From Minisyncoccia bacterium (GTDB taxonomy: Bacteria; Patescibacteriota; Minisyncoccia; Phycocordibacterales; UBA1006): a stretch of 64,000 bases of DNA. The notes beneath the pieces were generated by a model. It searched no databases. It worked only from the letters and a program-made list of their open reading frames with translations, and was not told the DNA's origin. The stretch is from assembly GCA_044229075.1 (NCBI GenBank), contig JBGATS010000001.1, forward strand, positions 275 through 64,274, read 5' to 3'. A program made the position numbers and the translations under genes. Shown piece by piece: positions 17,011 through 63,838 of the stretch (position 1 is the stretch's first letter; the number at the start of each line of letters is the position of its first letter).

Positions 17011-17053
17011 ATTTTGTCCAGTTTTCACCAAGTTATCCACATGGTTTTTCCAC
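17011..17053 (+). promoter_or_regulatory. cluster of four tandem DnaA-box-like 9-mers (TTTTGTCCA, GTTTTCACC, TTATCCACA, TTTTCCACA) next to a long AT-rich tract
   Basis: one perfect TTATCCACA consensus plus 3 near-matches in same orientation; 16850-17010 extremely AT-rich. Confidence 0.3.
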
Positions 17054-17103
17054 ATGTCAAATGTATGAAAATACGTTTATTTATAAAGGTATTTTGGTAA
17101 TTC

Positions 17104-17138
17104 AGGGGGGGCGCCTGCGGCGCCCCCCCTTTTTTTTT
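17104..17138 (+). terminator. strong rho-independent terminator (ggggggcgcctgcggcgcccccc + T9)
   Basis: 11-bp GC stem + TTTTTTTTT on plus strand with no annotated plus-strand gene upstream: implies unannotated transcript. Confidence 0.7.
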
Positions 17139-17263
17139 CATTTTTGAATTTTCCAAATCACCTGTTTTATACAATAACTATTTTCTATGATGAGCACAAT
17201 ACTAGTTATTGAGACTCTTTTTTAAAACTCTTTTTATAAACCATACCCAAAAACTTCATTCCT

Positions 17264-18268
17264 GTGGTATACTCGACCTATATGATACGTGATGGAAAAA
17301 TTGAACGATCGCTGGATGCAAATTTACGCCCGCATTCATGGGCAGAATATATTGGCCAGGAATCGATTAAAAAGAATCTCGATATTTTGATCCGTGCTGC
17401 AGAAAACCGTGCGCAAGTTGCGGAACATATCCTGTTCTATGGCCCACCAGGGTTAGGGAAAACAACCCTCGCCCATCTGATCGCAAAAGAAACAGGTCGC
17501 GCGATGAAAATCACCAGTGGTCCCGCCATTGAAAAGGTGGGCGACCTGGCGAGCATTCTGACCAACGTTCAACCAGGCGATATTGTGTTCATCGATGAAA
17601 TTCATCGCTTGAATAAAATGATTGAGGAAATCCTCTACCCTGCTATGGAATCCGGTGTTCTGGATATTATTATCGGAAAAGGACCGAGCGCACGAACCCT
17701 GCAATTAGAACTTCCACCATTCACCCTGATTGCAGCAACAACACGTCCCAGCCTGATGTCGTCACCGTTGCGATCGCGATTTTCAGGAGGAAGTTTCAAA
17801 ATGGAATTCTATACTGATCCAGAAATGGCACGCATTATTAAACAATCCGCAGAAAAATTGGGTGTTACCATTACCGATGATGCCCTCCATAATATTGCAA
17901 CCCGATGCCGCAAAACACCCCGAACCGCCAACCATTATCTGAAACGTATTCGTGATTATGCAGAGGTACATAACATCACCACTATCGACAGTCATGTTGT
18001 TGATCAGGCGCTCGACCTGATGGGAATCGATACGGTCGGACTGACACCATCTGATCGGTTGTTACTGATTACCCTGATCGAAAAATTCGACGGTGGACCG
18101 GTGGGAGTCAAGACGCTCGCTGCAGCAACAGGCGAGGAAGAAGATACGATCGAGGAAGTGATCGAACCATATCTGATCCAGACAGGATTACTCGAAAAAA
18201 CACCACGTGGACGCATGGCGACTGAAAAAGCATACACACATTTAGGGTTTGAATATGTGAAGGAATAA
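17264..18268 (+). CDS. ruvB: Holliday junction branch migration helicase RuvB
   Basis: AAA+ Walker A GPPGLGKTTLAHLIA, Walker B DIVFIDEIHRL, C-terminal winged helix. Confidence 0.95.
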   Translation: MVYSTYMIRDGKIERSLDANLRPHSWAEYIGQESIKKNLDILIRAAENRAQVAEHILFYGPPGLGKTTLAHLIAKETGRAMKITSGPAIEKVGDLASILTNVQPGDIVFIDEIHRLNKMIEEILYPAMESGVLDIIIGKGPSARTLQLELPPFTLIAATTRPSLMSSPLRSRFSGGSFKMEFYTDPEMARIIKQSAEKLGVTITDDALHNIATRCRKTPRTANHYLKRIRDYAEVHNITTIDSHVVDQALDLMGIDTVGLTPSDRLLLITLIEKFDGGPVGVKTLAAATGEEEDTIEEVIEPYLIQTGLLEKTPRGRMATEKAYTHLGFEYVKE

Positions 18269-34792: not shown

Positions 34793-34819
34793 AAAGTATT
34801 CCTACGGGAATGCTTTTTT
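34793..34819 (+). terminator. rho-independent terminator (agtattcc-tacg-ggaatgct + T5)
   Basis: seen in sequence. Confidence 0.5.
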
Positions 34820-35654
34820 ATTGTAATCGTTTATTACTAGTCTTGCTTCCTACTTGCTTTTTCATAATTTTTTTAATATCTGGCTCCGCGGGTAATTTTT
34901 CTGGAATAATACCTCGTGACAAGAGGGCTTTTCGAGTTGTTTGAGAATTCTCGAGAACTTCACGAACAAGTCTTTCTTTACCAGAAATATTTTTTGTTTT
35001 AATATTATGATCAGTCATGGCAAGTGCAAAATCCTTTGCACGAAGCTCCACATCGCTATCAAAATCTGCAAGTGGTCTATTGTTTGGGATTTTCTTTTTT
35101 GCTTTTAGTTGTCGTGTTGTTAATCCACCATACAGCGCCTGTATGTGTTTATCTTTGAATCCTGCAAAATCTACTGATGTATTAATTCCTCGAGTATATA
35201 CCGTACCTCTAATATTCTTTTCTGTATCGGCAAGTTTTTTTCGTGAAGCAATTCTCTTATGCTCATATTCTGCAATTTGTAGCAATTCTTGTTTACGTGT
35301 TTGGGTGGCAAAATACATTTGTGCTTCAGCGATTTCAGGTTTTCGTGGATCGCCGTTTTGAGCAATAAGGTAACATGCGTAACGTGTTAAAAGAATATCA
35401 TCAACGGGACGCTTTGCTTTTGAACCTATGGCGACCATTTTGTCGGCGCCGACAAAATGGTCCGCACTATTTATATTTTGTGTGTCACAAGAATTCTTTG
35501 CACGAATAATTGCATCAGAAAATTTTCTCCATTCCTTATAACCAAGTAATGGGTGGAGTTCACGTGCAGACCAATACTCAAAATTATCTATTGTTTTTTT
35601 AATAGATTCCAGATGGTGTATAAAGTTTTTTGGGTTTGGGTTCATAGTTGACAA
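34818..35654 (-). CDS. DinD-like (DNA-damage-inducible protein D family) protein carrying a duplicated IleRS N-terminus
   Basis: EYWSARELHPLLGYKEWRKF resembles the DinD family's conserved N-terminal region (recalled from memory, not searched). The first 12 codons, MSTMNPNPKNFI, are identical to those of ileS. Confidence 0.5.
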   Translation of the reverse strand: MSTMNPNPKNFIHHLESIKKTIDNFEYWSARELHPLLGYKEWRKFSDAIIRAKNSCDTQNINSADHFVGADKMVAIGSKAKRPVDDILLTRYACYLIAQNGDPRKPEIAEAQMYFATQTRKQELLQIAEYEHKRIASRKKLADTEKNIRGTVYTRGINTSVDFAGFKDKHIQALYGGLTTRQLKAKKKIPNNRPLADFDSDVELRAKDFALAMTDHNIKTKNISGKERLVREVLENSQTTRKALLSRGIIPEKLPAEPDIKKIMKKQVGSKTSNKRLQ

Positions 35655-40896: not shown

Positions 40897-41930
40897 ATAG
40901 TTTTTGTATAAAAAGTTAATAATAAAGTGGAGAGACAATACCATTTTACCCCCCCCCCGATACAAAGTCAATGTTATATTTTCCTTGCTATTTTTATCTA
41001 TTTTGTCAATATTCGGCAAAATCGGGGCAACCGGGAGTGGTCGCGCATTCGACACGCCCACGTATTGGCTCATTCAGAGCCTCTTAGTTCTGTTTTTGTG
41101 CGCGAGAGAGGACTTGGTCACACATAATTTTTCTGACGAAAAATTTGCTCGACCCTGCCTCGCGGCGTTCGCCTTTTCGCTTTCGCTCAAAACTCACGCA
41201 ACGCTCCAACTTTCAAGTCCTCACGTACGCAATGCAGGTTGCGTACTTCTCTAAACAAGTATACTAAAAACAGCGAAATAATCGCTGTTTTTAGTATATA
41301 GTGCCGGTACAGGAACTCAGCTTGAACTCCTCAATTCATTAGAATATATGCTCAATATGGATAAAAAGCTATCAGAATTTAGCGTATCTCTTACAGAAAT
41401 ATATGAAGGTAAGCATACAGTAAGTACACTACATATCCCTAACCTTATTTTATAGATCTTCATATTGTTCTGTATTTACACAACAATATACATATCTTGT
41501 AAATAGTTAGAAAAAAGAGTATACTTAACCATATGAACAAGAAAGATAATCTCTCTGAACTGGTCCAAATAGTGCAGGATCAGAAAAAGCCAGAACCTAA
41601 AAATGATACTCGTGTAATTACCAATGACGGGACCGTGGTTATTTTGGATACAAAATCTCCAAAAACTACATAGTTGTGTATCTACAGCATAATCTGTGTT
41701 TTTACCTCCTTAATTCCTTTGTTTTACAATGTATACGGGTAGTTGTATCTTGAACGTAGTGAAAGGTACCATACCCCAGGGAAAACGATTAAAAAGTTAC
41801 CGAAGTTTATTTCCTAAAATATCCATACATAGTAACTAAAAATTGAAAATATAGACCACACTTCGTGTAAAAATACACTTCAAAAAACTCTATTTTCTGA
41901 TATACTTTGAAGGTAAAATTTAATAAAAAA

Positions 41931-42104
41931 GACCTAACCCCTAGAAGTCATTTTAGGATATGGTCGCAAATCCAATCACGAATAAAGAACTCCTCGTCAG
42001 AGTTCCGTGATTGGTCGTGCAAGGAAACTTGTGCGGAGCCTATGGCTCGCTTCTGATGGGGAGCTTTTTGTTACCCAAATGAAGTTTAAATCCAATCACA
42101 TTTT
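41931..42104 (+). promoter_or_regulatory. conserved structured 5' leader, copy A (paralogous to 63250-63448)
   Basis: Shared gacctaacccc...tatggYgcaaatcc-X-aaaaa(c)ctcctcgtc.g.agt.c-X'-gg...ggaaac...ggggag...aaaYcc-X-ttttATGAAT. Segment X covaries between copies (aatcacg here, gctaaagtg in copy B). Confidence 0.5.
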
Positions 42105-42593
42105 ATGAATTCATTTTTTACATTTCTCCTATTAATTTCTGTAATAGGTTTCATTATTGGCTTAATTAAGCCGACGTTACTAAAACTACACTCTAGAAAA
42201 CAATCGGCTACTATTTTTGGTATAGCAATTATAATCCTTTTTATACTTGTTGGTGCAACAGCTAAAAAAGTACCGGTCCCTGTTGTTGTAGAAGAAGTAC
42301 CCAAGGTGACAGAAACTAAACCAGCTGAAACTGTAACCAGCACTACCACACCAAATACAACCAATCGTGAAAGTATCCTTGCCCTCCTAAAAACCACTGC
42401 AAAAGCAAAATGGGGAGACAATTACCAAATGGTGAAATACGAATATGATAATCAAGTAGAAGCGTATGACTGGGTTATAGCACAAACTGCGTACCCAGAT
42501 ATTATGACTACCGCAAAAAGTAAGTGGGGTAATAATTATCAGATGGTGAAGTATGAGTATGAGAACCAAGTGAAAGCATTTAAAAGTTTATAA
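42105..42593 (+). CDS. hypothetical membrane-anchored protein with Thr/Pro-rich linker and two KWGDNYQMVKYEY repeats
   Basis: N-terminal TM, internal tandem repeat. Confidence 0.45.
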   Translation: MNSFFTFLLLISVIGFIIGLIKPTLLKLHSRKQSATIFGIAIIILFILVGATAKKVPVPVVVEEVPKVTETKPAETVTSTTTPNTTNRESILALLKTTAKAKWGDNYQMVKYEYDNQVEAYDWVIAQTAYPDIMTTAKSKWGNNYQMVKYEYENQVKAFKSL

Positions 42594-42646
42594 ATAAAAA
42601 TAGCCACCTCAATTATGGGTGGCTATAATTTTTGAACATAATTCTA

Positions 42647-43135
42647 CTAAACTTCTTGCGGTGTTAATGCGATAAGTAGCGTGTTTGCCATCTTGATACC
42701 ATCGTCAGTATTTCTGAAAAACAATACGTCATCCGTAATATCCAACCAACCAACAAGTTTTTCATTTCTTAGTGGTTTACCTGAGACGATATCATTTAAG
42801 CCAGAATACTCACCGTGACCATCGTGATTAGGCGTCGTCCAGCTTTTAATTTTTTCAATATACTCATCTTTCTCAGATTTAGATATAAGTACTAAAAAGG
42901 TGGCACCACAAATTTCTTCAGTAAACAGCTCTTTATCTTTTTTATGAAAAATATTTTGAAGAGATTTAGGGATGGATCCAAATTCATATTCAGAAGCTCC
43001 CATATAATCAAAATCAACTATTTTTAGTAATTCTTTTTTTCCTTCGTTATTAAGTCCACGAAGAGGAGCAATACTGCCAAACGGATTTTCAAAACCTTTA
43101 GGAGGCATAAGTCTTTGAAGAAGATTTTTTCTCAT
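42647..43135 (-). CDS. hypothetical protein
   Basis: 162-aa ORF. Confidence 0.4.
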   Translation of the reverse strand: MRKNLLQRLMPPKGFENPFGSIAPLRGLNNEGKKELLKIVDFDYMGASEYEFGSIPKSLQNIFHKKDKELFTEEICGATFLVLISKSEKDEYIEKIKSWTTPNHDGHGEYSGLNDIVSGKPLRNEKLVGWLDITDDVLFFRNTDDGIKMANTLLIALTPQEV

Positions 43136-43266
43136 TTTTATTAATTTTTAATTTTATGAAATTTAAATATATATTAGCACGAAATAAATATAAAGTCAAC
43201 ACCATTTCATAAATTAAGCTTAGTATTTATATTCAAAAAATATCCCAAAAATGCTAAACTACCCGT

Positions 43267-44901
43267 ATGGAAAGCAATATAACCGTACAAGACCTTGCTA
43301 AACTCTTTCGTTCAGATATTGAACACAATGAAGCAACTCCTCAAACACTCAAATACGTAGTATATCTCCGTAAATCTACCGAAGAAAAAGGTAAGCAAAT
43401 CCGCTCTATTCCCGATCAAAAGAAAGAGTGTCTTGAATATGCAAAACGAGAAGGAATTAATGTTAAAGATATTGTCGTAGAAACACGATCCGCAAAAGAA
43501 AGTGGTACTCGTCCCTATTTTAAAAAAATGCTAGAGGATTTAAAAACTGGTAAATACAATGCAATCCTTGCGTGGCACCCCGATAGACTAGCTCGTAATA
43601 TGAAAGACGCGGGTGAGATTATAGATTTTTTAGATAGAGACTATATCCGTGATATGAAATTTGTCAGCTTTACCTTTTCAAATGACACGAGTGGTAAACT
43701 CTTACTCGGTATTACATTTGCAATGTCTAAAGAATACTCGGACAAGCTTTCTGATAACGTAACGCGTGGTAATACTCGAAAAATGGAAGAAGGTAAAATA
43801 GTAAGTTTTATTCCCAAAGGATATTACAAAGATAGCCGTGATTTTCCAAGACCAGACGGTGTGGCTTTTGAAGTTATTTCAAACGCCTTTCGTATGCGAC
43901 TAGAGGGTGAAACTATGGAAAGTATCGCGAAGAGTTTAAATACACAAGCACTACTCGTAAATAAAACTGCTGAAAATAAACTTGGAGTATATCGTAAACA
44001 GCAAGTAATGCGAATGTTAGAAAATCCATTTTATGCAGGTGTCTATTTACACGGAGAGAAAATAGAGATACTTGGTAATGGTTATGATTTCAAACCAATA
44101 ATTACCCCCGAAGAATATTTACTCATAAACAAGAAAACCGGAGAAAAGTCAGGTAAACTCAAACGGGTACTCCGTTTCTTTAAAAAAGAAGGAGTAAAAG
44201 CAGATCTATTACGCCAGTGTGTTTTATGTGCAGAATGTGGACACACTATGTCAGCTGGTATTATGACCAAAAAGACAAACAAAGGTATAGAGAATAGATT
44301 TCACTATCGGTGCGATCAGAAAGACTGTATATCGAGAAACAAGAATGTACGACCAAGTATCATAATTAGTTACGTAGCTGATTATATAGAAACTCACTTT
44401 AGTCCAAGTAGGGCAAAATGGGAGCATTATCAAGTAGAAGCCAAGAAAGACTTCGCACTACTCAAAAGTCGTCTTGTAGGTGAACTAACAGCTCTCACAG
44501 CCCATAAAACGGACCTTACAAACGGTATGACTGATACAAGACTAGAGTTACGTCGCTTAATAGAAGAAAATGGTAATGAGGAGCTACGAAAAGACTATGA
44601 AGTAGATTATATGAAAATGAGTAATGAACTTAAAGAGGTGGATCTTTTAATAACAGAATGTAAAGAAAAAACAAAAGAAAACCTTAAACTTCTGGACCAA
44701 ACAGAGTTTCTTGAACTTATGCAAAATCTCCCTAATTTTATTAGGAATACAAGAGATATGAAAGTTCTCGACGAAATCATTAGAAAAATCTTCTTGAACT
44801 TCACCGTAAACCAAAAAGGAGTAATAAGCTCAACACTTAATACTCCTTTCGATATGGTTTTAGGACCAAAAGTCCCATATAGTGCGCGAGAGAGGACTTG
44901 A
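43267..44901 (+). CDS. large serine recombinase (resolvase-domain + recombinase + zinc-ribbon)
   Basis: The YLRKSTEE catalytic-serine context and the resolvase N-domain match large serine recombinases. The C-terminal Cys pairs (CVLCAECGH...CDQKDC) fit a zinc-ribbon. It is paralogous to the 53397-54752 gene. Confidence 0.85.
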   Translation: MESNITVQDLAKLFRSDIEHNEATPQTLKYVVYLRKSTEEKGKQIRSIPDQKKECLEYAKREGINVKDIVVETRSAKESGTRPYFKKMLEDLKTGKYNAILAWHPDRLARNMKDAGEIIDFLDRDYIRDMKFVSFTFSNDTSGKLLLGITFAMSKEYSDKLSDNVTRGNTRKMEEGKIVSFIPKGYYKDSRDFPRPDGVAFEVISNAFRMRLEGETMESIAKSLNTQALLVNKTAENKLGVYRKQQVMRMLENPFYAGVYLHGEKIEILGNGYDFKPIITPEEYLLINKKTGEKSGKLKRVLRFFKKEGVKADLLRQCVLCAECGHTMSAGIMTKKTNKGIENRFHYRCDQKDCISRNKNVRPSIIISYVADYIETHFSPSRAKWEHYQVEAKKDFALLKSRLVGELTALTAHKTDLTNGMTDTRLELRRLIEENGNEELRKDYEVDYMKMSNELKEVDLLITECKEKTKENLKLLDQTEFLELMQNLPNFIRNTRDMKVLDEIIRKIFLNFTVNQKGVISSTLNTPFDMVLGPKVPYSARERT

Positions 44902-44965
44902 ACCTCCACCCCGTTGCCAGGACTACCACCTCAAGGTAGCTTGTCTACCAGTTTCAACACTCGCG
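44882..44965 (-). tRNA. tRNA-Leu (anticodon GAG), class II long variable arm
   Basis: Cloverleaf folded by hand: GCGCGAG acceptor, anticodon loop UUGAGGU, T-arm GGAGGTTCAAGTCCTCT. Confidence 0.8.
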
Positions 44966-45017
44966 CAATGAAGCCCAGTATACTGGGATTTATTTTTTTG
45001 TAAAGAAAAACTGCATT

Positions 45018-45467
45018 TTATGCAGTAGTTTCTGGAGTTTCTTCGATTACTTCGTCCATCATTTCTGATGCTGGTACAACCAGATCGTTTGATGATGAAA
45101 AGAAATCTTTGAAATTACGCATCTTGCGGCGGATCGCCTTGGTAACTTTATCTCGGATAAAGTATAATTTCGCACGGCGAACTTTTGCACGACGGATAAT
45201 ATCAATTTTTTCTATAGTTGGACTATAGAGTGGGAAAATTCTTTCCACCCCAACACCGTGAGAGATTTTGCGAACGGTGAATGTCGCACCTGCTTCTGTT
45301 CCATGTTTTCGAGCAATAACGAGACCTTCGAACATCTGTGTTCGAGTCTTGCCTTTTTCGACAATTTTTACATGGACGCGTACAGTATCTCCAACACGGA
45401 GATCCATCTCCTTGCGTACTGCAAGGGCTGCAGGAATGAATTGTGTATTTGTAATAACGGTATTCAT
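45018..45467 (-). CDS. rplS: 50S ribosomal protein L19 with ~30-aa acidic C-terminal extension
   Basis: start placed at MNTVITNTQ; [25 protein letters not shown] core. Confidence 0.85.
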
Positions 45468-45800
45468 AGCTGTGTGATTAAATAATAACCTGGTGACATT
45501 AGCATGGAATGGAAAAATAATCAAGTCGGTAGAAAAATCAACTCTGAAACAAAAAAAGACTGTACGAACACAGTCTTCAAATTTTAAACGTTTATAATAC
45601 TTAGTCCTTTCCAGGTCCGCCAAGAGTGTAAATATCACTCTCCTCTTGTTGTTCTGTTTTTCTAAACTCTTTTGCACATCTTTCAAGATTTTCTATGAGA
45701 AACTTGAGAAATTTTAAAGATTTTTCTTTTTCAGGAAATAGTTTTTCTATTTTTCTGGATAAATCAACTTTTTCTTTTGCCATATTATTTTTCTTTTAAT

Positions 45801-46553
45801 TTACACCGTATTAATATGTTTGTCAATTACTTGTTGAAAATCTGGTGGGAGCGGTGCCTCAACAGTAACTAACTCTTTGTCCAGATCTCTGAAGGTAATT
45901 TTGCGCGCATGGAGCGCCACTCGATCAAAATCGAGGAGTCCGACTGTTTTTGGTGAATACAATCCATCACTCAGAATGGGTCGCTGAATTGATTTCATAT
46001 GAACCCGTAATTGATGCGTTCGTCCTGTTTCTGGGAATAATGATACCATCGAGTATTTATTCCCGATATCATCGGTAAATTTCTTGTTCGTCATGTAACG
46101 AGTAACCGCAGGTCGCATCATACCACGCGCGCCACGACCAGTAGTCCACAATCGAATATCTTTTGGGTGGCGACCAATCGGTTCATTAATCATTCCACGA
46201 TCGTCTGTCCAACCTGACACAATCGCAACATATTCTTTTTTTATTGTGTGATCTTGAAACTGCTTTTTCAAGTGTTCATAGGATTCCTGTGTTTTTGCAA
46301 TAATCATTACGCCCGATGTTTCTCGATCTAATCGATGCACAATACCTGGACGATCAATGGTGACCTGTTCACCTTTATACTCTATTGATAACGGTTCCCC
46401 AACACCGGTAATTTCTGGGTATTGTTCCAAGATCCAGTCACACAACGAATATTCCTCGCGTTTCCCATCTGGATGCACTACCAAACCTGCTGGTTTATTA
46501 ATCACCAGAATGTCTGTAGTATCCAGAAGGATTTGAGGGCTGGGTTTTTCCAT
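45801..46553 (-). CDS. RluA-family pseudouridine synthase
   Basis: HRLDRETSGVMIIAKT catalytic Asp motif. Confidence 0.85.
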   Translation of the reverse strand: MEKPSPQILLDTTDILVINKPAGLVVHPDGKREEYSLCDWILEQYPEITGVGEPLSIEYKGEQVTIDRPGIVHRLDRETSGVMIIAKTQESYEHLKKQFQDHTIKKEYVAIVSGWTDDRGMINEPIGRHPKDIRLWTTGRGARGMMRPAVTRYMTNKKFTDDIGNKYSMVSLFPETGRTHQLRVHMKSIQRPILSDGLYSPKTVGLLDFDRVALHARKITFRDLDKELVTVEAPLPPDFQQVIDKHINTV

Positions 46554-51397: not shown

Positions 51398-51482
51398 GGA
51401 GGCGTGGATGAGTGGTTTAAATCAACAGTCTTGAAAACTGTCGACTCGAAAGGGTCCGTGAGTTCGAATCTCACCGCCTCCG
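51398..51482 (+). tRNA. tRNA-Ser (anticodon TGA), class II
   Basis: GGAGGCG acceptor, anticodon loop CTTGAAA, long variable arm, T-arm GTGAGTTCGAATCTCAC. Confidence 0.85.
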
Positions 51483-53396: not shown

Positions 53397-54752
53397 TTAC
53401 TTTAATAAAGTTATTTTCTTCTCTTTCAGTATCAACCTACTCCTTAAATGTCCCATAAGTTCACGCTTTTCAAGTGGTGTACCTTCTCGCAATACATACT
53501 TAGCATACTCTCTGGTATTCACATCATCCTCGTTGATGCTGTATTTTGGTGTACCTTTTGTTGCTAGTCTTTGTAGTCTATTGAATCGCTTTATTTCTTC
53601 CTCGAGCTTCATTCGCATACCTAACTCATTAATACTCACTTTATCTATGACCTTGAATAGTTCCTCGATAAGTTCCTCCTCTCGTATGTATTTGTTCTTA
53701 CAATTTCTATCTTTTGCCTTAGAGCATGAGTAGTAGATATATTTTGCATTGGTTCCATCTTTGAGCAACTTGTATTTTTCTTGAGCTGTTATACCTGACT
53801 GGCACATTCCGCATGTAAATAATTTCGTAAAGGCAAACTCTCGATTTTCTCGAACAATTTTATCTCGCTTTAGATGTTCTTGTGCTTTTTTAAACAACTC
53901 TTCATCAATTATTGGCTCATGACTTCCTTGGTACCAATTACCGCTATTTTTAGGATATTCGAATGGTCCATAATATATCGGCATATCAAATATACGATAA
54001 ACCCCTGAGAGTGTCAGGGGTTTGTTTCCTCGAGTATAAAAATTTAACTCAAATCGCAACCAGTTGTATACCTTGCGACCACTCCAATTTTCATAGGCAA
54101 CCTTTTCAAACATTTTTTTGATTATTGGGGCTCGCTCTGGATCAATGGCGAGCTGACATTTTCGATCCATAATTTTCTGGTTGAGATATCCAAGTGGTGC
54201 CATTCCAGGCCAGAGACCCATTTCTACTCGTGTACGAAGTCCGCGCTTCACATTGATACCTCGGTTATCGTTCTCAAGTTTTGCTTGCGATCCGAGAATC
54301 ATTAGGAGAAATTTCTCATTTGGATTATTTGAAAACGTCTGTCCGAAAGTTCGTATTTGGAGGAGTTTACCTGCATCCATCAGGTCTACGATTTTTCCTA
54401 GATCTCCGGCGTTTCTGGAAATACGATCTGGTGCCCATGTCAGAATCGCATTATATTTACCATCTCGAATTTCCTCTACGATTTCATTAAATACGGGTCG
54501 TTGTCCAGTTTCTTTTGCGCTGTGACTTTCTCGTTTCATAGCTACAATCTCTAGTCCTTCACGTTCGGCGAGTGCAAGCATTTCATTAATTTGAGAGTCT
54601 ATTGAAAGTACCTGTCTCTCCTCAGACTCTGTCGACTTTCTTGCATAAAGGCAATATTTCGCCTTTATTATATTTTGCTCTACTGGGGCTATTTCATAGC
54701 CATTTGGTGCATTTATTTTCATACACCTAACTAATGCCGCAGGACGTCCCAT
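53397..54752 (-). CDS. large serine recombinase (paralog of 43267-44901)
   Basis: YARKSTESEERQV...DRISRN catalytic domain, recombinase domain, C-terminal Cys cluster. Confidence 0.85.
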   Translation of the reverse strand: MGRPAALVRCMKINAPNGYEIAPVEQNIIKAKYCLYARKSTESEERQVLSIDSQINEMLALAEREGLEIVAMKRESHSAKETGQRPVFNEIVEEIRDGKYNAILTWAPDRISRNAGDLGKIVDLMDAGKLLQIRTFGQTFSNNPNEKFLLMILGSQAKLENDNRGINVKRGLRTRVEMGLWPGMAPLGYLNQKIMDRKCQLAIDPERAPIIKKMFEKVAYENWSGRKVYNWLRFELNFYTRGNKPLTLSGVYRIFDMPIYYGPFEYPKNSGNWYQGSHEPIIDEELFKKAQEHLKRDKIVRENREFAFTKLFTCGMCQSGITAQEKYKLLKDGTNAKYIYYSCSKAKDRNCKNKYIREEELIEELFKVIDKVSINELGMRMKLEEEIKRFNRLQRLATKGTPKYSINEDDVNTREYAKYVLREGTPLEKRELMGHLRSRLILKEKKITLLK

Positions 54753-54793
54753 AAGTCTAGGTTCTTTGAAAAATAACTGTTGGTAACTAAATA

Positions 54794-63151: not shown

Positions 63152-63249
63152 AACTGTTGGTAAATTCACTACACAACGTCTTAAAGTTAAGCTAAAGTAC
63201 CCAAGTACCTCCTTTTGAGGTATAATATCTTCGACATCTGAATAAAGTC

Positions 63250-63448
63250 GACCTAACCCCTAAAAAACCTTGTTTTCTAGGGTATGGCGCAAATCCGCTA
63301 AAGTGTAAAAACCTCCTCGTCTGGAGTCACTTTAGTGGTCATGTCTGGAAACGGATATGGGTAGAGTAATCTACCATAACAGGCGGGGAGATTTTTGCTA
63401 TCTCCGATCTGTTTTTATCATAAAGCAAAACAAAACCGCTAAAGTTTT
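63250..63448 (+). promoter_or_regulatory. conserved structured 5' leader, copy B (paralogous to 41931-42104)
   Basis: see copy A; includes hairpin ggagat-ttttgct-atctcc followed by T-rich run; preceded by TATAAT at 63221. Confidence 0.5.
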
Positions 63449-63838
63449 ATGAATAAATATTTAACCTATATTATAGGTATTTCCTGTATAGTTATTACAG
63501 GAGCAGTAGCATATTATTTCTTTTCATATTTGCCTAGTAAAAATGCATTACTCGGACAGAAAGAATGTCGAAATATGGCACTCAATAAATTTGAAAAAGA
63601 TCAGTCTGGCACTTCAGAACCTGAGTTTGTTTTTGATGAGAAAGGAAGATGTTTGTACAAGTTGGTAGAAGTTCATTCTTCTGAAGGCATATCAGTTATA
63701 ATGTTTTACATAATTGATTTGTACACTAACCAACAAGTTGCTGGATATACCGAAACTTACAAAGATGGAAACAAAACAACATTAGGCAATCAGTCTATTT
63801 TTGATTCTATAGATAAGAAATATTTTAAAGAGCAATAA
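63449..63838 (+). CDS. hypothetical membrane-anchored small protein
   Basis: N-terminal TM; followed by hairpin terminator aaccacgctttgtgcgtggtt. Confidence 0.4.
   Translation: MNKYLTYIIGISCIVITGAVAYYFFSYLPSKNALLGQKECRNMALNKFEKDQSGTSEPEFVFDEKGRCLYKLVEVHSSEGISVIMFYIIDLYTNQQVAGYTETYKDGNKTTLGNQSIFDSIDKKYFKEQ

What the first reader, a model, noticed from the sequence alone, without database searches (positions are those of the whole stretch)
41931..42104. Paralogous ~180-nt structured leader with compensatory stem changes upstream of two unrelated small membrane-protein genes (second copy 63250-63448)
Two copies share a conserved scaffold: gacctaacccc, hairpin 1, tatggYgcaaatcc, hairpin 2 with a conserved CU-rich loop (aaaaaCCUCCUCGUC.g.agu), ggaaac, a GGGGAG box plus hairpins, then aaaYcc-X-ttttATG. 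Segment X differs between copies (aatcacg vs gctaaagtg). In each copy it recurs at three places: the 5' strand of hairpin 2, its reverse complement on the 3' strand, and again directly over the RBS/start codon. That is covariation consistent with RNA structure. It also suggests alternative X'/X pairings that could occlude or free the start codon. Copy B carries a terminator-like hairpin plus T-run. Both copies sit ~25 nt downstream of a -10-like box (tgaTATACT at 41902; TATAAT at 63221). I cannot match the motif to any riboswitch class from memory.
Basis: seen in the sequence. Interest (0 to 1): 0.72.

Follow-up and report, generated by a model that had tools for sequence, protein, structure and literature searches.

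The report
LOOT RNA leaders before variable genes
Both copies belong to the already catalogued but functionally unexplained LOOT RNA family; here it sits as a promoter-driven leader before variable, mostly membrane-protein genes of ultra-small (Patescibacteria) bacteria and looks built to hide or expose the start codon.

Summary
Both copies (41931-42104, 63250-63448) match Rfam LOOT RNA (RF03000) over the full model at 73 and 76 bits (gathering score 46.4). So this is a known family, typed as an sRNA of unknown function, not an unmatched riboswitch class.

- The CU-rich loop of hairpin 2 (L) pairs with the "GGGGAG box" (L') after P4. This 9-19 bp covarying long-range helix lies outside the 121-nt Rfam model.
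- In the window's clade, the 5' strand of P2 (AAAWCC+X) recurs next to the start codon (X2) in 77 of 107 loci, against 0 of 104 controls. There are 28 different X sequences. X2 usually ends 2-4 nt before the AUG, and sometimes covers or follows it.
- Blocking X makes anti-X pair with X2 in 71 of 74 modelled leaders, at about 3 kcal/mol.
- A -10 box lies upstream, and a same-strand ORF almost always follows.

Hosts are nearly all Patescibacteria, often beside serine recombinases. The window genome is Shine-Dalgarno-poor and largely leaderless.

Best reading: a cis-acting, two-state translational leader with an unknown trigger (confidence about 0.5).

The parts
41901..41906 (+). Copy A -10 box TATACT (TG at 41898-41899)
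   Evidence: Promoter scan. TATAAT-like hexamers are enriched 25-35 nt upstream of the motif in 100 relatives.
41931..42048 (+). Copy A LOOT core (P1-P4) as modelled by Rfam
   Evidence: cmscan RF03000, 73.4 bits against a gathering score of 46.4, model 1-121. Fold z-score -5.6.
41931..41965 (+). Copy A P1 hairpin with internal loop CCUAAC / UAUGG, which resembles the GAAA-tetraloop receptor
   Evidence: Sequence. The 11-nt receptor is CCUAAG/UAUGG (PMC11381326).
41968..41980 (+). Copy A AAAUCC + X (5' strand of P2)
   Evidence: P2 pair counts.
41990..42002 (+). Copy A L: P2 loop strand CUCCUCGUCAGAG, which pairs with L'
42006..42014 (+). Copy A anti-X (3' strand of P2; alternative partner of X2)
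42016..42048 (+). Copy A P3 (GAAA loop) and P4 hairpins
42051..42074 (+). Copy A L' (UUCUGAUGGGGAG) plus U-rich tract CUUUUUGUUAC; lies outside the Rfam model
42088..42099 (+). Copy A X2: second copy of AAAUCC+X, ending 5 nt before the AUG
42105..42593 (+). Copy A downstream ORF: 162 aa, two N-terminal hydrophobic segments, no Pfam match
63221..63226 (+). Copy B -10 box TATAAT
   Evidence: Conserved in L132.
63234..63244 (+). Copy B 5' leader motif ACAUCUGAAUA (family consensus ACAAYUGAAUA); the transcript probably starts here
   Evidence: The start site itself is inferred.
63250..63375 (+). Copy B LOOT core (P1-P4)
   Evidence: cmscan RF03000, 76.1 bits. Fold z-score -6.1.
63291..63305 (+). 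Copy B AAAUCC + X (CCGCUAAAGUG)
63313..63323 (+). Copy B L (CUCCUCGUCUG)
63328..63338 (+). Copy B anti-X (CACUUUAGUGG)
63380..63405 (+). Copy B L' (CAGGCGGGGAG), U-rich tract, and the local alternative hairpin GGAGAU..AUCUCC
63432..63445 (+). Copy B X2 (AAAACCGCUAAAGU), ending 3 nt before the AUG
63449..63838 (+). Copy B downstream ORF: 129 aa, N-terminal hydrophobic segment, no Pfam match

Best explanation
Each copy is a promoter-driven 5' leader of about 190-215 nt from the LOOT RNA family. It acts in cis on translation initiation of the ORF directly behind it.

The leader has two mutually exclusive folds:
- LOOT fold: X pairs with anti-X (P2). The P2 loop strand L pairs with L' after P4, forming a pseudoknot-like long-range helix. 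The P3 GAAA loop probably docks into the receptor-like internal loop of P1. X2 and the start codon stay single-stranded, so the ORF can be translated.
- Alternative fold: anti-X pairs with X2, which lies within the ribosome's landing zone. L' can pair with a downstream L''. The start region is then occluded.

What is shown: family membership, both helices, the three-way covariation, the position of X2 relative to the AUG, near iso-energetic alternatives, the upstream -10 box and the downstream ORF.

What is inferred: that the RNA actually switches, the polarity (LOOT fold = ON), and the existence of a trigger (ligand, ion, protein, temperature or 5' decay). The trigger is unknown.
For: - **Family membership.** Rfam LOOT hits lie well above the gathering score in the window and in 17 of 17 sampled relatives.
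- **L:L' helix.** It spans 9-19 contiguous bp in 103 of 107 clade-1 loci and at least 9 bp in 77 of 85 seed-type loci, against 5-8 bp in shuffles. RNAalifold selects it with many compensatory pairs and a near-invariant U-G wobble, which points to RNA on the + strand.
- **X2 recurrence.** It is present with at most 1 mismatch in 77 of 107 loci against 0 of 104 upstream controls, across 28 distinct X 7-mers.
- **Pair counts.** P2 is 84.3% paired and anti-X:X2 is 83.8% paired, with covariation scores of 0.62 and 0.60 against 0.16 in shuffles.
- **A systematic X/X2 difference.** X2 carries A where X carries U, opposite a U. This adds an A-U pair in anti-X:X2 only: 40 of 57 against 12 of 57.
- **Position of X2.** The helix would end 2-4 nt before the AUG in 56 of 75 leaders. 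In other subtypes X2 contains the AUG (L089) or lies in codons 3-7 (L021, L072, L075). So it is always within the initiation footprint.
- **X2 is a conserved island.** The flanking spacers are variable.
- **Energetics.** Blocking or deleting X makes anti-X:X2 form in 71 of 74 leaders, at a mean cost of 3.0 kcal/mol (1.2 kcal/mol for copy A).
- **Transcription context.** A -10 box is enriched 25-35 nt upstream. An ORF of at least 40 aa starts 20-60 nt after L' in most seed-type loci.
- **No trans targets.** No other copy of either X exists in the 64 kb window.
Against: - No transcript data are available.
- X has no alternative partner, so P2 (local, and 1-3 bp longer at its distal end) should dominate unless something intervenes. 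For copy B, the modelled alternative did not form when X was blocked.
- Only about 12% of seed-type LOOT RNAs have X2, and their start regions show no excess complementarity to the RNA. X2 therefore cannot be the whole mechanism of the family.
- The downstream genes are functionally heterogeneous, which is unusual for a metabolite riboswitch.
- The rows used for the anti-X:X2 pair count were pre-selected for having X2.
- Rfam types the family as an sRNA.
Confidence: 0.5

Rival explanations
1. LOOT is a stand-alone small RNA, as Rfam types it. The L:L' helix followed by the U-rich tract would be an unusual long-range intrinsic terminator or attenuator. The ORF would be expressed only by read-through. 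X2 would be a site where the abundant LOOT RNA acts on read-through mRNA, in cis or in trans.
For: - Rfam type is 'Gene; sRNA'.
- A GC-rich helix strand L' is immediately followed by YUUUUUG or CUUUGUGUU in nearly all members.
- An upstream A-tract pairs with the U-tract, as in some terminators.
- The simple scan flags terminator-like sites at 42049-42064 and 63387-63405.
Against: - The terminator stem would enclose 60-75 nt containing P3 and P4.
- The U-tract is itself predicted to be paired, or to lie in the loop of the L':L'' hairpin.
- The spacer before the ORF has no room for a promoter, yet the ORFs are intact and conserved across species.
- Anti-X is buried in P2, which makes it a poor trans-acting seed.
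- The same X type occurs before different genes in one genome (L074 and L078).
Confidence: 0.2
2. LOOT is an RNA stability or processing module. The compact 5' fold would protect the mRNA from 5'-end-dependent nucleases. Once the 5' part (P1-X) is removed, anti-X would re-pair with X2, either forming a new protective 5' helix or switching off translation of decaying mRNA.
For: - Deleting the RNA up to X makes anti-X:X2 form in 71 of 74 models.
- Both 5' strands (X and L) have downstream duplicates (X2 and L''), so the 3' part can refold without the 5' part.
- The genome is otherwise leaderless, so a long leader needs a rationale.
Against: - No cleavage motif is conserved in the 2-4 nt between X2 and the AUG.
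- X2 can lie inside the ORF or cover the AUG, which does not fit a processing site.
- L'' is only moderately supported: 34% against 12% in shuffles for helices of at least 8 bp.
Confidence: 0.12
3. The X/X2 direct repeats and the X/anti-X inverted repeat are DNA-level recombination sites of a mobile gene-cassette system, driven by a serine recombinase or by microhomology. They would place variable cargo genes behind a portable promoter-leader.
For: - Large serine recombinases are divergent neighbours in 13 loci, and two lie in the window.
- P2 is almost purely Watson-Crick.
- L040 carries a copy with an exact deletion between X and X2.
- Window copy B and L132 are about 96% identical up to ATGAATAA and unrelated after that.
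- A CTGTTGGTAAC box recurs at module borders.
Against: - The G-U wobbles and the invariant U-G in L:L', the GAAA loop and the receptor-like loop are RNA features of the + strand.
- X2 is an isolated conserved island flanked by variable sequence, not the edge of a homology block.
- X2 differs from X in the direction that improves pairing with anti-X.
- Large serine recombinases do not create 12-14 bp direct repeats (established knowledge).
- Most loci have no recombinase nearby.
Confidence: 0.08

Closest known systems
LOOT RNA motif (Rfam RF03000; Weinberg et al. 2017, PMC5737381; Rfam 14, PMC7779021)
   Same: Both copies match the whole 121-position model (P1 to P4) at 73-76 bits. They show the same hypervariable P2, which fits the many 'cross-covariations' noted for LOOT (PMC7657543).
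   Different: The published model stops at P4 and the family is typed as a metagenome-based sRNA. Here the RNA continues with L', a U-rich tract and (in this clade) X2. It has its own -10 box and sits directly before an ORF. Its hosts can be named as Patescibacteria.
Translational riboswitches and leaders with three-strand expression platforms (anti-anti-RBS / anti-RBS / RBS, for example the thiM TPP riboswitch; from general knowledge)
   Same: A structured 5' domain holds a strand (anti-X) that can pair either within the domain (X) or with the translation start region (X2). As a result, X and X2 look alike.
   Different: No ligand or conserved pocket has been identified. The sequestered element is not a Shine-Dalgarno sequence but a hypervariable 9-12 nt next to the AUG. 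The regulated genes are heterogeneous and sit on mobile or variable islands.
11-nt GAAA tetraloop receptor (CCUAAG/UAUGG; PMC11381326)
   Same: The P1 internal loop reads CCUAAC / UAUGG (10 of 11 positions identical), and P3 carries a near-invariant GAAA loop.
   Different: Position 6 is C in the window's clade (A in the Rfam consensus), and seed-type LOOT has CAUGG. Docking has not been tested.
Putative mobile promoters / portable promoter-leader modules (from general knowledge)
   Same: A nearly identical promoter plus leader is found in front of unrelated genes in different genomes, with homology ending at the start codon.
   Different: The module carries a large structured RNA with internal covariation, not just a promoter.

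Membership tests
LOOT RNA (Rfam RF03000) | Covariance-model score at or above the curated gathering score (46.4 bits) over the full model | tested here: met
   73.4 and 76.1 bits, model positions 1-121, E about 1e-12.
LOOT RNA (Rfam RF03000) | Multi-hairpin architecture: two-part P1, two-part P2, P3 and P4 with GNRA-type loops | tested here: met
   Minimum-free-energy folds of both copies give P1-P4. RNAalifold and pair counts support P1, P3 and P2.
LOOT RNA (Rfam RF03000) | Annotation as a trans-acting small RNA gene | tested here: inconclusive
   A same-strand ORF follows within 20-60 nt of L' in most of the 85 seed-type loci, and X2 is tied to the AUG in 77 of 107 clade-1 loci. This argues for a cis role, but no transcript ends are known.
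Riboswitch / cis-regulatory mRNA leader | Conserved structured domain in the 5' UTR, transcribed from its own promoter, directly upstream of the regulated ORF | tested here: met
   Enrichment of a -10 box; ORF adjacency. Transcription itself is inferred.
Riboswitch / cis-regulatory mRNA leader | Mutually exclusive alternative pairing that involves the translation initiation region | tested here: met
   The anti-X:X2 helix of 9-12 bp ends 2-4 nt from the AUG or overlaps it. Its modelled cost is about 3 kcal/mol. Applies to 72% of clade-1 and 12% of seed-type members.
Riboswitch / cis-regulatory mRNA leader | Specific binding of a small-molecule or ion ligand | not testable with these tools
   Needs in-line probing or binding assays.
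Riboswitch / cis-regulatory mRNA leader | Downstream genes share a coherent pathway or function | tested here: not met
   The 82 downstream ORFs fall into 45 clusters. 61 of 82 have an N-terminal hydrophobic segment, but VRR-NUC, C5-methyltransferase, NucS-like and zinc-ribbon proteins also occur.
Intrinsic terminator / attenuator | GC-rich hairpin immediately followed by a U-tract | tested here: inconclusive
   L' is followed by a U-rich tract, but its partner L lies 60-75 nt upstream. Local hairpins are weak and not conserved.
GAAA tetraloop / 11-nt receptor pair | CCUAAG/UAUGG internal loop plus a GAAA loop elsewhere in the RNA | tested here: inconclusive
   CCUAAC/UAUGG in P1 and GAAA in P3 are near-invariant. 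Part of that invariance was imposed by the search pattern. Docking is not testable here.
DNA recombination site (integron attC-like or serine-recombinase att) | Site adjacent to its recombinase; structure needed only at the DNA level | tested here: not met
   A recombinase is the upstream neighbour in only 13 of 89 loci. Strand-specific G-U pairs and RNA tertiary motifs are present.

The most novel reading that the evidence does not exclude
LOOT would not be a trans-acting sRNA. It would be a new class of bistable cis-regulatory leader, specific to Patescibacteria mobile or variable gene modules. It would gate translation of leadered genes, mostly for membrane or surface proteins, in genomes that otherwise use leaderless mRNAs. 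The mechanism would be a programmable strand swap (X/anti-X/X2, with L/L'/L'') in response to a still unknown signal.
Probability: 0.4. Interest if true: 0.75.

Novelty: new member of a known kind. Interest (0 to 1): 0.5.

Why it matters
LOOT has been an orphan motif since 2017, known from metagenomes only and filed as an sRNA. The analysis adds four things:
- Named hosts. Nearly all named hosts are Patescibacteria (CPR), often next to serine recombinases, ParB-methylases and defence genes.
- A fuller anatomy. The RNA has a 3' extension with a covarying long-range helix, and a start-codon-linked copy of the P2 strand.
- A concrete, falsifiable mechanism.
- A regulatory role. The RNA would be one of the first regulatory RNAs assigned to this poorly understood, largely uncultured group, and a handle on how leadered genes are translated in genomes that lack Shine-Dalgarno sequences and mostly use leaderless mRNAs.

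Genetic tools now exist for Saccharibacteria (PMC10633639), so the hypothesis can be tested.

Tried and rejected
- **Phage origin.** Megablast of 41000-46000 against phage records found nothing. Only 2 of 15 viral-contig pattern hits were true LOOT.
- **Fixed-distance promoter.** There is no position-fixed -10 in a column profile. Enrichment appears only when the distance is allowed to vary.
- **X2 as a leaderless promoter.** The hexamers in X2 lie too close to the ATG and lack the T/A/T positions (inspection against the window's own leaderless genes).
- **Trans targets.** No further copies of either X exist in the window.
- **Complementarity in members without X2.** Pairing between the start region and the LOOT RNA does not differ from shuffles.
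- **Shine-Dalgarno between LOOT and the ATG.** Present in only 7 of 72 seed-type members, and several of those are doubtful.
- **Leader homology extending into the ORF.** Shared prefixes after the ATG are what AT-rich codon use would give.
- **Additional or degenerate LOOT copies in the window.** None found down to E 0.5.
- **Literature on function.** Nothing on LOOT function or on Patescibacteria regulatory RNAs was found. The supplement of the discovery paper is not held.
- **X types as orthogonal labels within a genome.** Rejected, because the same X type precedes different genes in one MAG (L074 and L078; L101 and L128).

Full report
**1. What is there**

Both are full-length matches to a single Rfam family, LOOT RNA (RF03000):
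- 41931-42048: 73.4 bits, E 6.7e-12.
- 63250-63375: 76.1 bits, E 1.6e-12.

The gathering score is 46.4 bits. A permissive scan finds no further copies in the window. A shared sequence pattern occurs exactly twice in the window, against zero hits in 100 shuffles. Thermodynamic folding reproduces P1-P4, with z-scores of -5.6 and -6.1.

LOOT was described in 2017 (PMC5737381). Rfam 14 lists it among "metagenomic-based RNAs" (PMC7779021). Rfam types it "Gene; sRNA". The only other remark I found is that its roughly 43 base pairs in six helices show 28 "cross-covariations" (PMC7657543). I found nothing on its function.

**2. Relatives**

Nearly all are Patescibacteria/CPR metagenome-assembled genomes: Nomura-, Paceibacterota, Saccharibacteria, Parcu-, Doudna-, Lloyd-, Yanofsky-, Kaiser-, Moran-, Staskawicz-, Berkel-, Levyi- and Minisyncoccia. 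A few are evident chance hits or mis-binned contigs.
- All 17 loci sampled from both sets carry one LOOT hit at 68-93 bits, at the expected place.

After filtering for an intact P2, I analysed 107 "clade-1" loci (the window's type) and 85 unique "seed-type" loci.

**3. Anatomy beyond the Rfam model**

(a) *Long-range helix L:L'.*
- The pyrimidine-rich strand in the P2 loop (L; CUCCUCGUC in the window) is complementary to the purine-rich "GGGGAG box" after P4 (L').
- The contiguous helix is 9-19 bp in 103 of 107 clade-1 loci and at least 9 bp in 77 of 85 seed-type loci. Shuffled sequences give 5-8 bp.
- RNAalifold on 73 full leaders chooses this helix. It has many double-sided changes: columns 77-156 are CG in 38 and AU in 33; 78-155 are GC in 51 and AU in 20; 68-163 are AU in 45 and GC in 22.
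- A near-invariant U-G wobble sits at columns 79-154 (69 of 73). A strand-specific wobble is evidence for RNA on the + strand.
- L' lies outside the 121-nt Rfam model, whose hits end at 42048 and 63375.
- L' is always followed by a U-rich tract (YUUUUUG or CUUUGUGUU), which can pair with the A-rich stretch 5' of L.

(b) *X2.*
- In clade-1, the 10-mer CC+X recurs downstream with at most one mismatch in 77 of 107 loci, against 0 of 104 equal-length upstream controls.
- It always carries the AAA(A/U)CC prefix.
- There are 28 distinct X 7-mers among 64 unique leaders.
- Formal pair counts give 84.3% paired cells and a covariation score of 0.62 for X:anti-X, and 83.8% and 0.60 for anti-X:X2. Shuffles give about 61% and 0.16; slid registers give 26-44%. 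The rows were chosen for having X2, so the independent test is the 77 of 107 against 0 of 104 comparison.
- X2 is not a plain duplicate. The base before CC is U in X (58 of 75) but A in X2 (54 of 75), opposite a U (69 of 75). That gives the alternative helix an extra A-U pair that P2 lacks.

(c) *Position of X2.*
- The alternative helix would end 2-4 nt before the AUG in 56 of 75 leaders.
- In the CAACGAAG subtype, X2 lies in codons 3-7 and imposes "NPTKK" on unrelated proteins. In L089 the AUG is inside X2.
- X2 is therefore tied to the initiation footprint, not to a fixed junction.
- It is a conserved island between variable spacers.

(d) *Upstream region.*
- TGnTAYAAT-like -10 boxes are enriched 25-35 nt before the motif. 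In the window these are TATACT at 41901-41906 and TATAAT at 63221-63226.
- The -10 box is followed by a conserved ACAAYUGAAUA segment.

(e) *Tertiary contact (a lead, not a test).* The P1 internal loop reads CCUAAC/UAUGG, which is 10 of 11 positions of the GAAA-tetraloop receptor CCUAAG/UAUGG (PMC11381326). P3 has a near-invariant GAAA loop. A tetraloop-receptor contact is plausible but untested, and part of the P1 conservation was imposed by my search pattern.

**4. Context**

- The window has 37.8% G+C.
- Only 7 of 52 long ORFs have a Shine-Dalgarno-like motif. Many have a TATACT or TATAAT box 6-10 nt before the ATG, meaning they are probably leaderless. The LOOT-linked genes are thus unusual in having long leaders without a Shine-Dalgarno sequence.
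- The two downstream proteins are unrelated. Neither has a Pfam match. Both start with hydrophobic segments.
- Across relatives, the 82 downstream ORFs fall into 45 clusters, and 61 have an N-terminal hydrophobic segment. The rest include VRR-NUC, NucS-like, C5-methyltransferase and zinc-ribbon proteins.
- Divergent large serine recombinases (13 loci) and ParB-methylases (8 loci) are the commonest upstream neighbours.
- The window itself has two large serine recombinases and a type I restriction-modification operon between the copies.
- Copy B and L132 are about 96% identical from the -10 box to ATGAATAA and unrelated after that. They include a compensatory A-U to G-C change in P3. The promoter-leader is therefore a portable module.

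**5. Mechanism**

- In nested-structure modelling of 74 leaders, P2 forms in 52 and anti-X:X2 already forms in 17.
- If X is blocked or the RNA is truncated after X, anti-X:X2 forms in 71 of 74. The mean cost is 3.0 kcal/mol (1.2 kcal/mol for copy A). For copy B the alternative did not form in the model.
- L' also has a moderately supported local partner L'': helices of at least 8 bp occur in 34% of leaders, against 12% in shuffles.
- Both 5' strands of the LOOT fold therefore have downstream stand-ins.
- I read this as a two-state cis-acting leader. In the LOOT fold (X:anti-X, L:L') the start region is free. In the alternative fold (anti-X:X2, with or without L':L'') it is occluded.
- The helices, the covariation, the positions and the energetics are shown. 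The switching, its polarity and its trigger are inferred.

Weak points:
- X has no alternative partner.
- P2 is almost purely Watson-Crick (8 G-U in 1155 cells).
- Only 10 of 85 seed-type members have X2, and the rest show no start-region complementarity. X2 is therefore an elaboration of a more general, still unexplained, LOOT function.

**6. Rivals**

- *Stand-alone sRNA or attenuator that ends at L' plus the U-tract.* This fits the Rfam type and the U-tract. However, it needs a 60-75 nt terminator "loop", and it leaves intact ORFs without promoters.
- *Stability or processing module.* This fits the refolding after 5' truncation. However, no cleavage motif is conserved, and X2 can lie inside ORFs.
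- *DNA-level cassette recombination site.* This fits the recombinase neighbours, the exact X-X2 deletion in L040 and the homology break at the ATG. However, it conflicts with the RNA-specific wobbles and with X2 being an isolated conserved island.

**7. Verdict**

The two copies are new members of the known LOOT family, not a new class.

The added value is threefold: an extended anatomy, a host assignment and a testable cis-regulatory model. Confidence in that model is about 0.5.

Noticed in passing
window, whole (for example 7713, 11859, 17282, 29847, 46629, 54839): Only 7 of 52 long ORFs have a Shine-Dalgarno-like motif. Many have TATACT or TATAAT 6-10 nt before the ATG, so most mRNAs are probably leaderless.
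   Followed up: partly
window 54777-54787 and 63154-63164; also L012, L026, L071, L095, L097, L121: The box CTGTTGGTAA(C/A) occurs 26 nt from the start of the serine recombinase gene (53397-54752, minus strand) and again just after the YgjP stop codon, about 95 nt before LOOT copy B. The two direct repeats bracket the type I restriction-modification operon. The same box lies 95-120 nt upstream of LOOT in about 40 of 107 loci and recurs every few kb on one strand. It may be a cassette border or att-like site.
   Followed up: partly
window 43267-44901 (+) and 53397-54752 (-): Two large serine recombinases (Resolvase + Recombinase + zinc-ribbon domains) lie between the two LOOT copies, with core genes (L19, a pseudouridine synthase, tRNAs, PilM-like) in between.
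   Followed up: partly
window 42079-42108: Copy A has a 9-codon upstream ORF (MKFKSNHIL*) that contains X2. Its UGA stop overlaps the main start codon (AUGA). Copy B has no equivalent.
   Followed up: no
L040 7158-7215 (+); also L148, L187, L194: Short forms of the leader exist. P1 and AAAUCC+X are joined directly to the ATG, as if the about 130 nt between X and X2 had been deleted precisely.
   Followed up: partly
L135, L138, L155, L214, L234, L237, L238: A 'mini' relative exists: the same receptor-like hairpin (UUCCUAAACCC..GGGCAUGGAAG) followed by AAAACC and a short GCAA-loop hairpin. In L135 it sits directly upstream of a serine recombinase ORF.
   Followed up: no
L021, L072, L075, L089: In the CAACGAAG subtype, X2 lies inside the ORF and encodes NPTKK at residues 4-8 of unrelated proteins. 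In L089 the AUG is part of X2.
   Followed up: yes
window 63187-63200; many loci about 60-70 nt upstream of LOOT: A conserved CTAAGCTA(A/G)(A/G)GT motif, plus a covarying short inverted repeat that overlaps the -10 box (for example TACCA..TGGTATAAT, TAGCAA..TTGCTACAAT), lie upstream of the leader.
   Followed up: no
window 42105-42593: The ORF behind copy A ends in two tandem repeats: KWGDNYQMVKYEYDNQVEAY and KWGNNYQMVKYEYENQVKAF. Its N-terminal FxxLLLxSxxGxIxGLIKP segment is shared with the LOOT-linked ORFs of L083, L030 and L054.
   Followed up: partly
window 34818-35645 (-) and 51398-51482 (+): A BRO-N domain protein, typical of phages and mobile elements, and a long-variable-arm tRNA among three tRNA genes.
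   Followed up: no
window 17024-17141 (+): A sub-threshold match to the ribosomal protein L20 leader (32.6 bits against a gathering score of 58.7, E 0.016). It lies just upstream of the ORF that starts at 17282.
   Followed up: no
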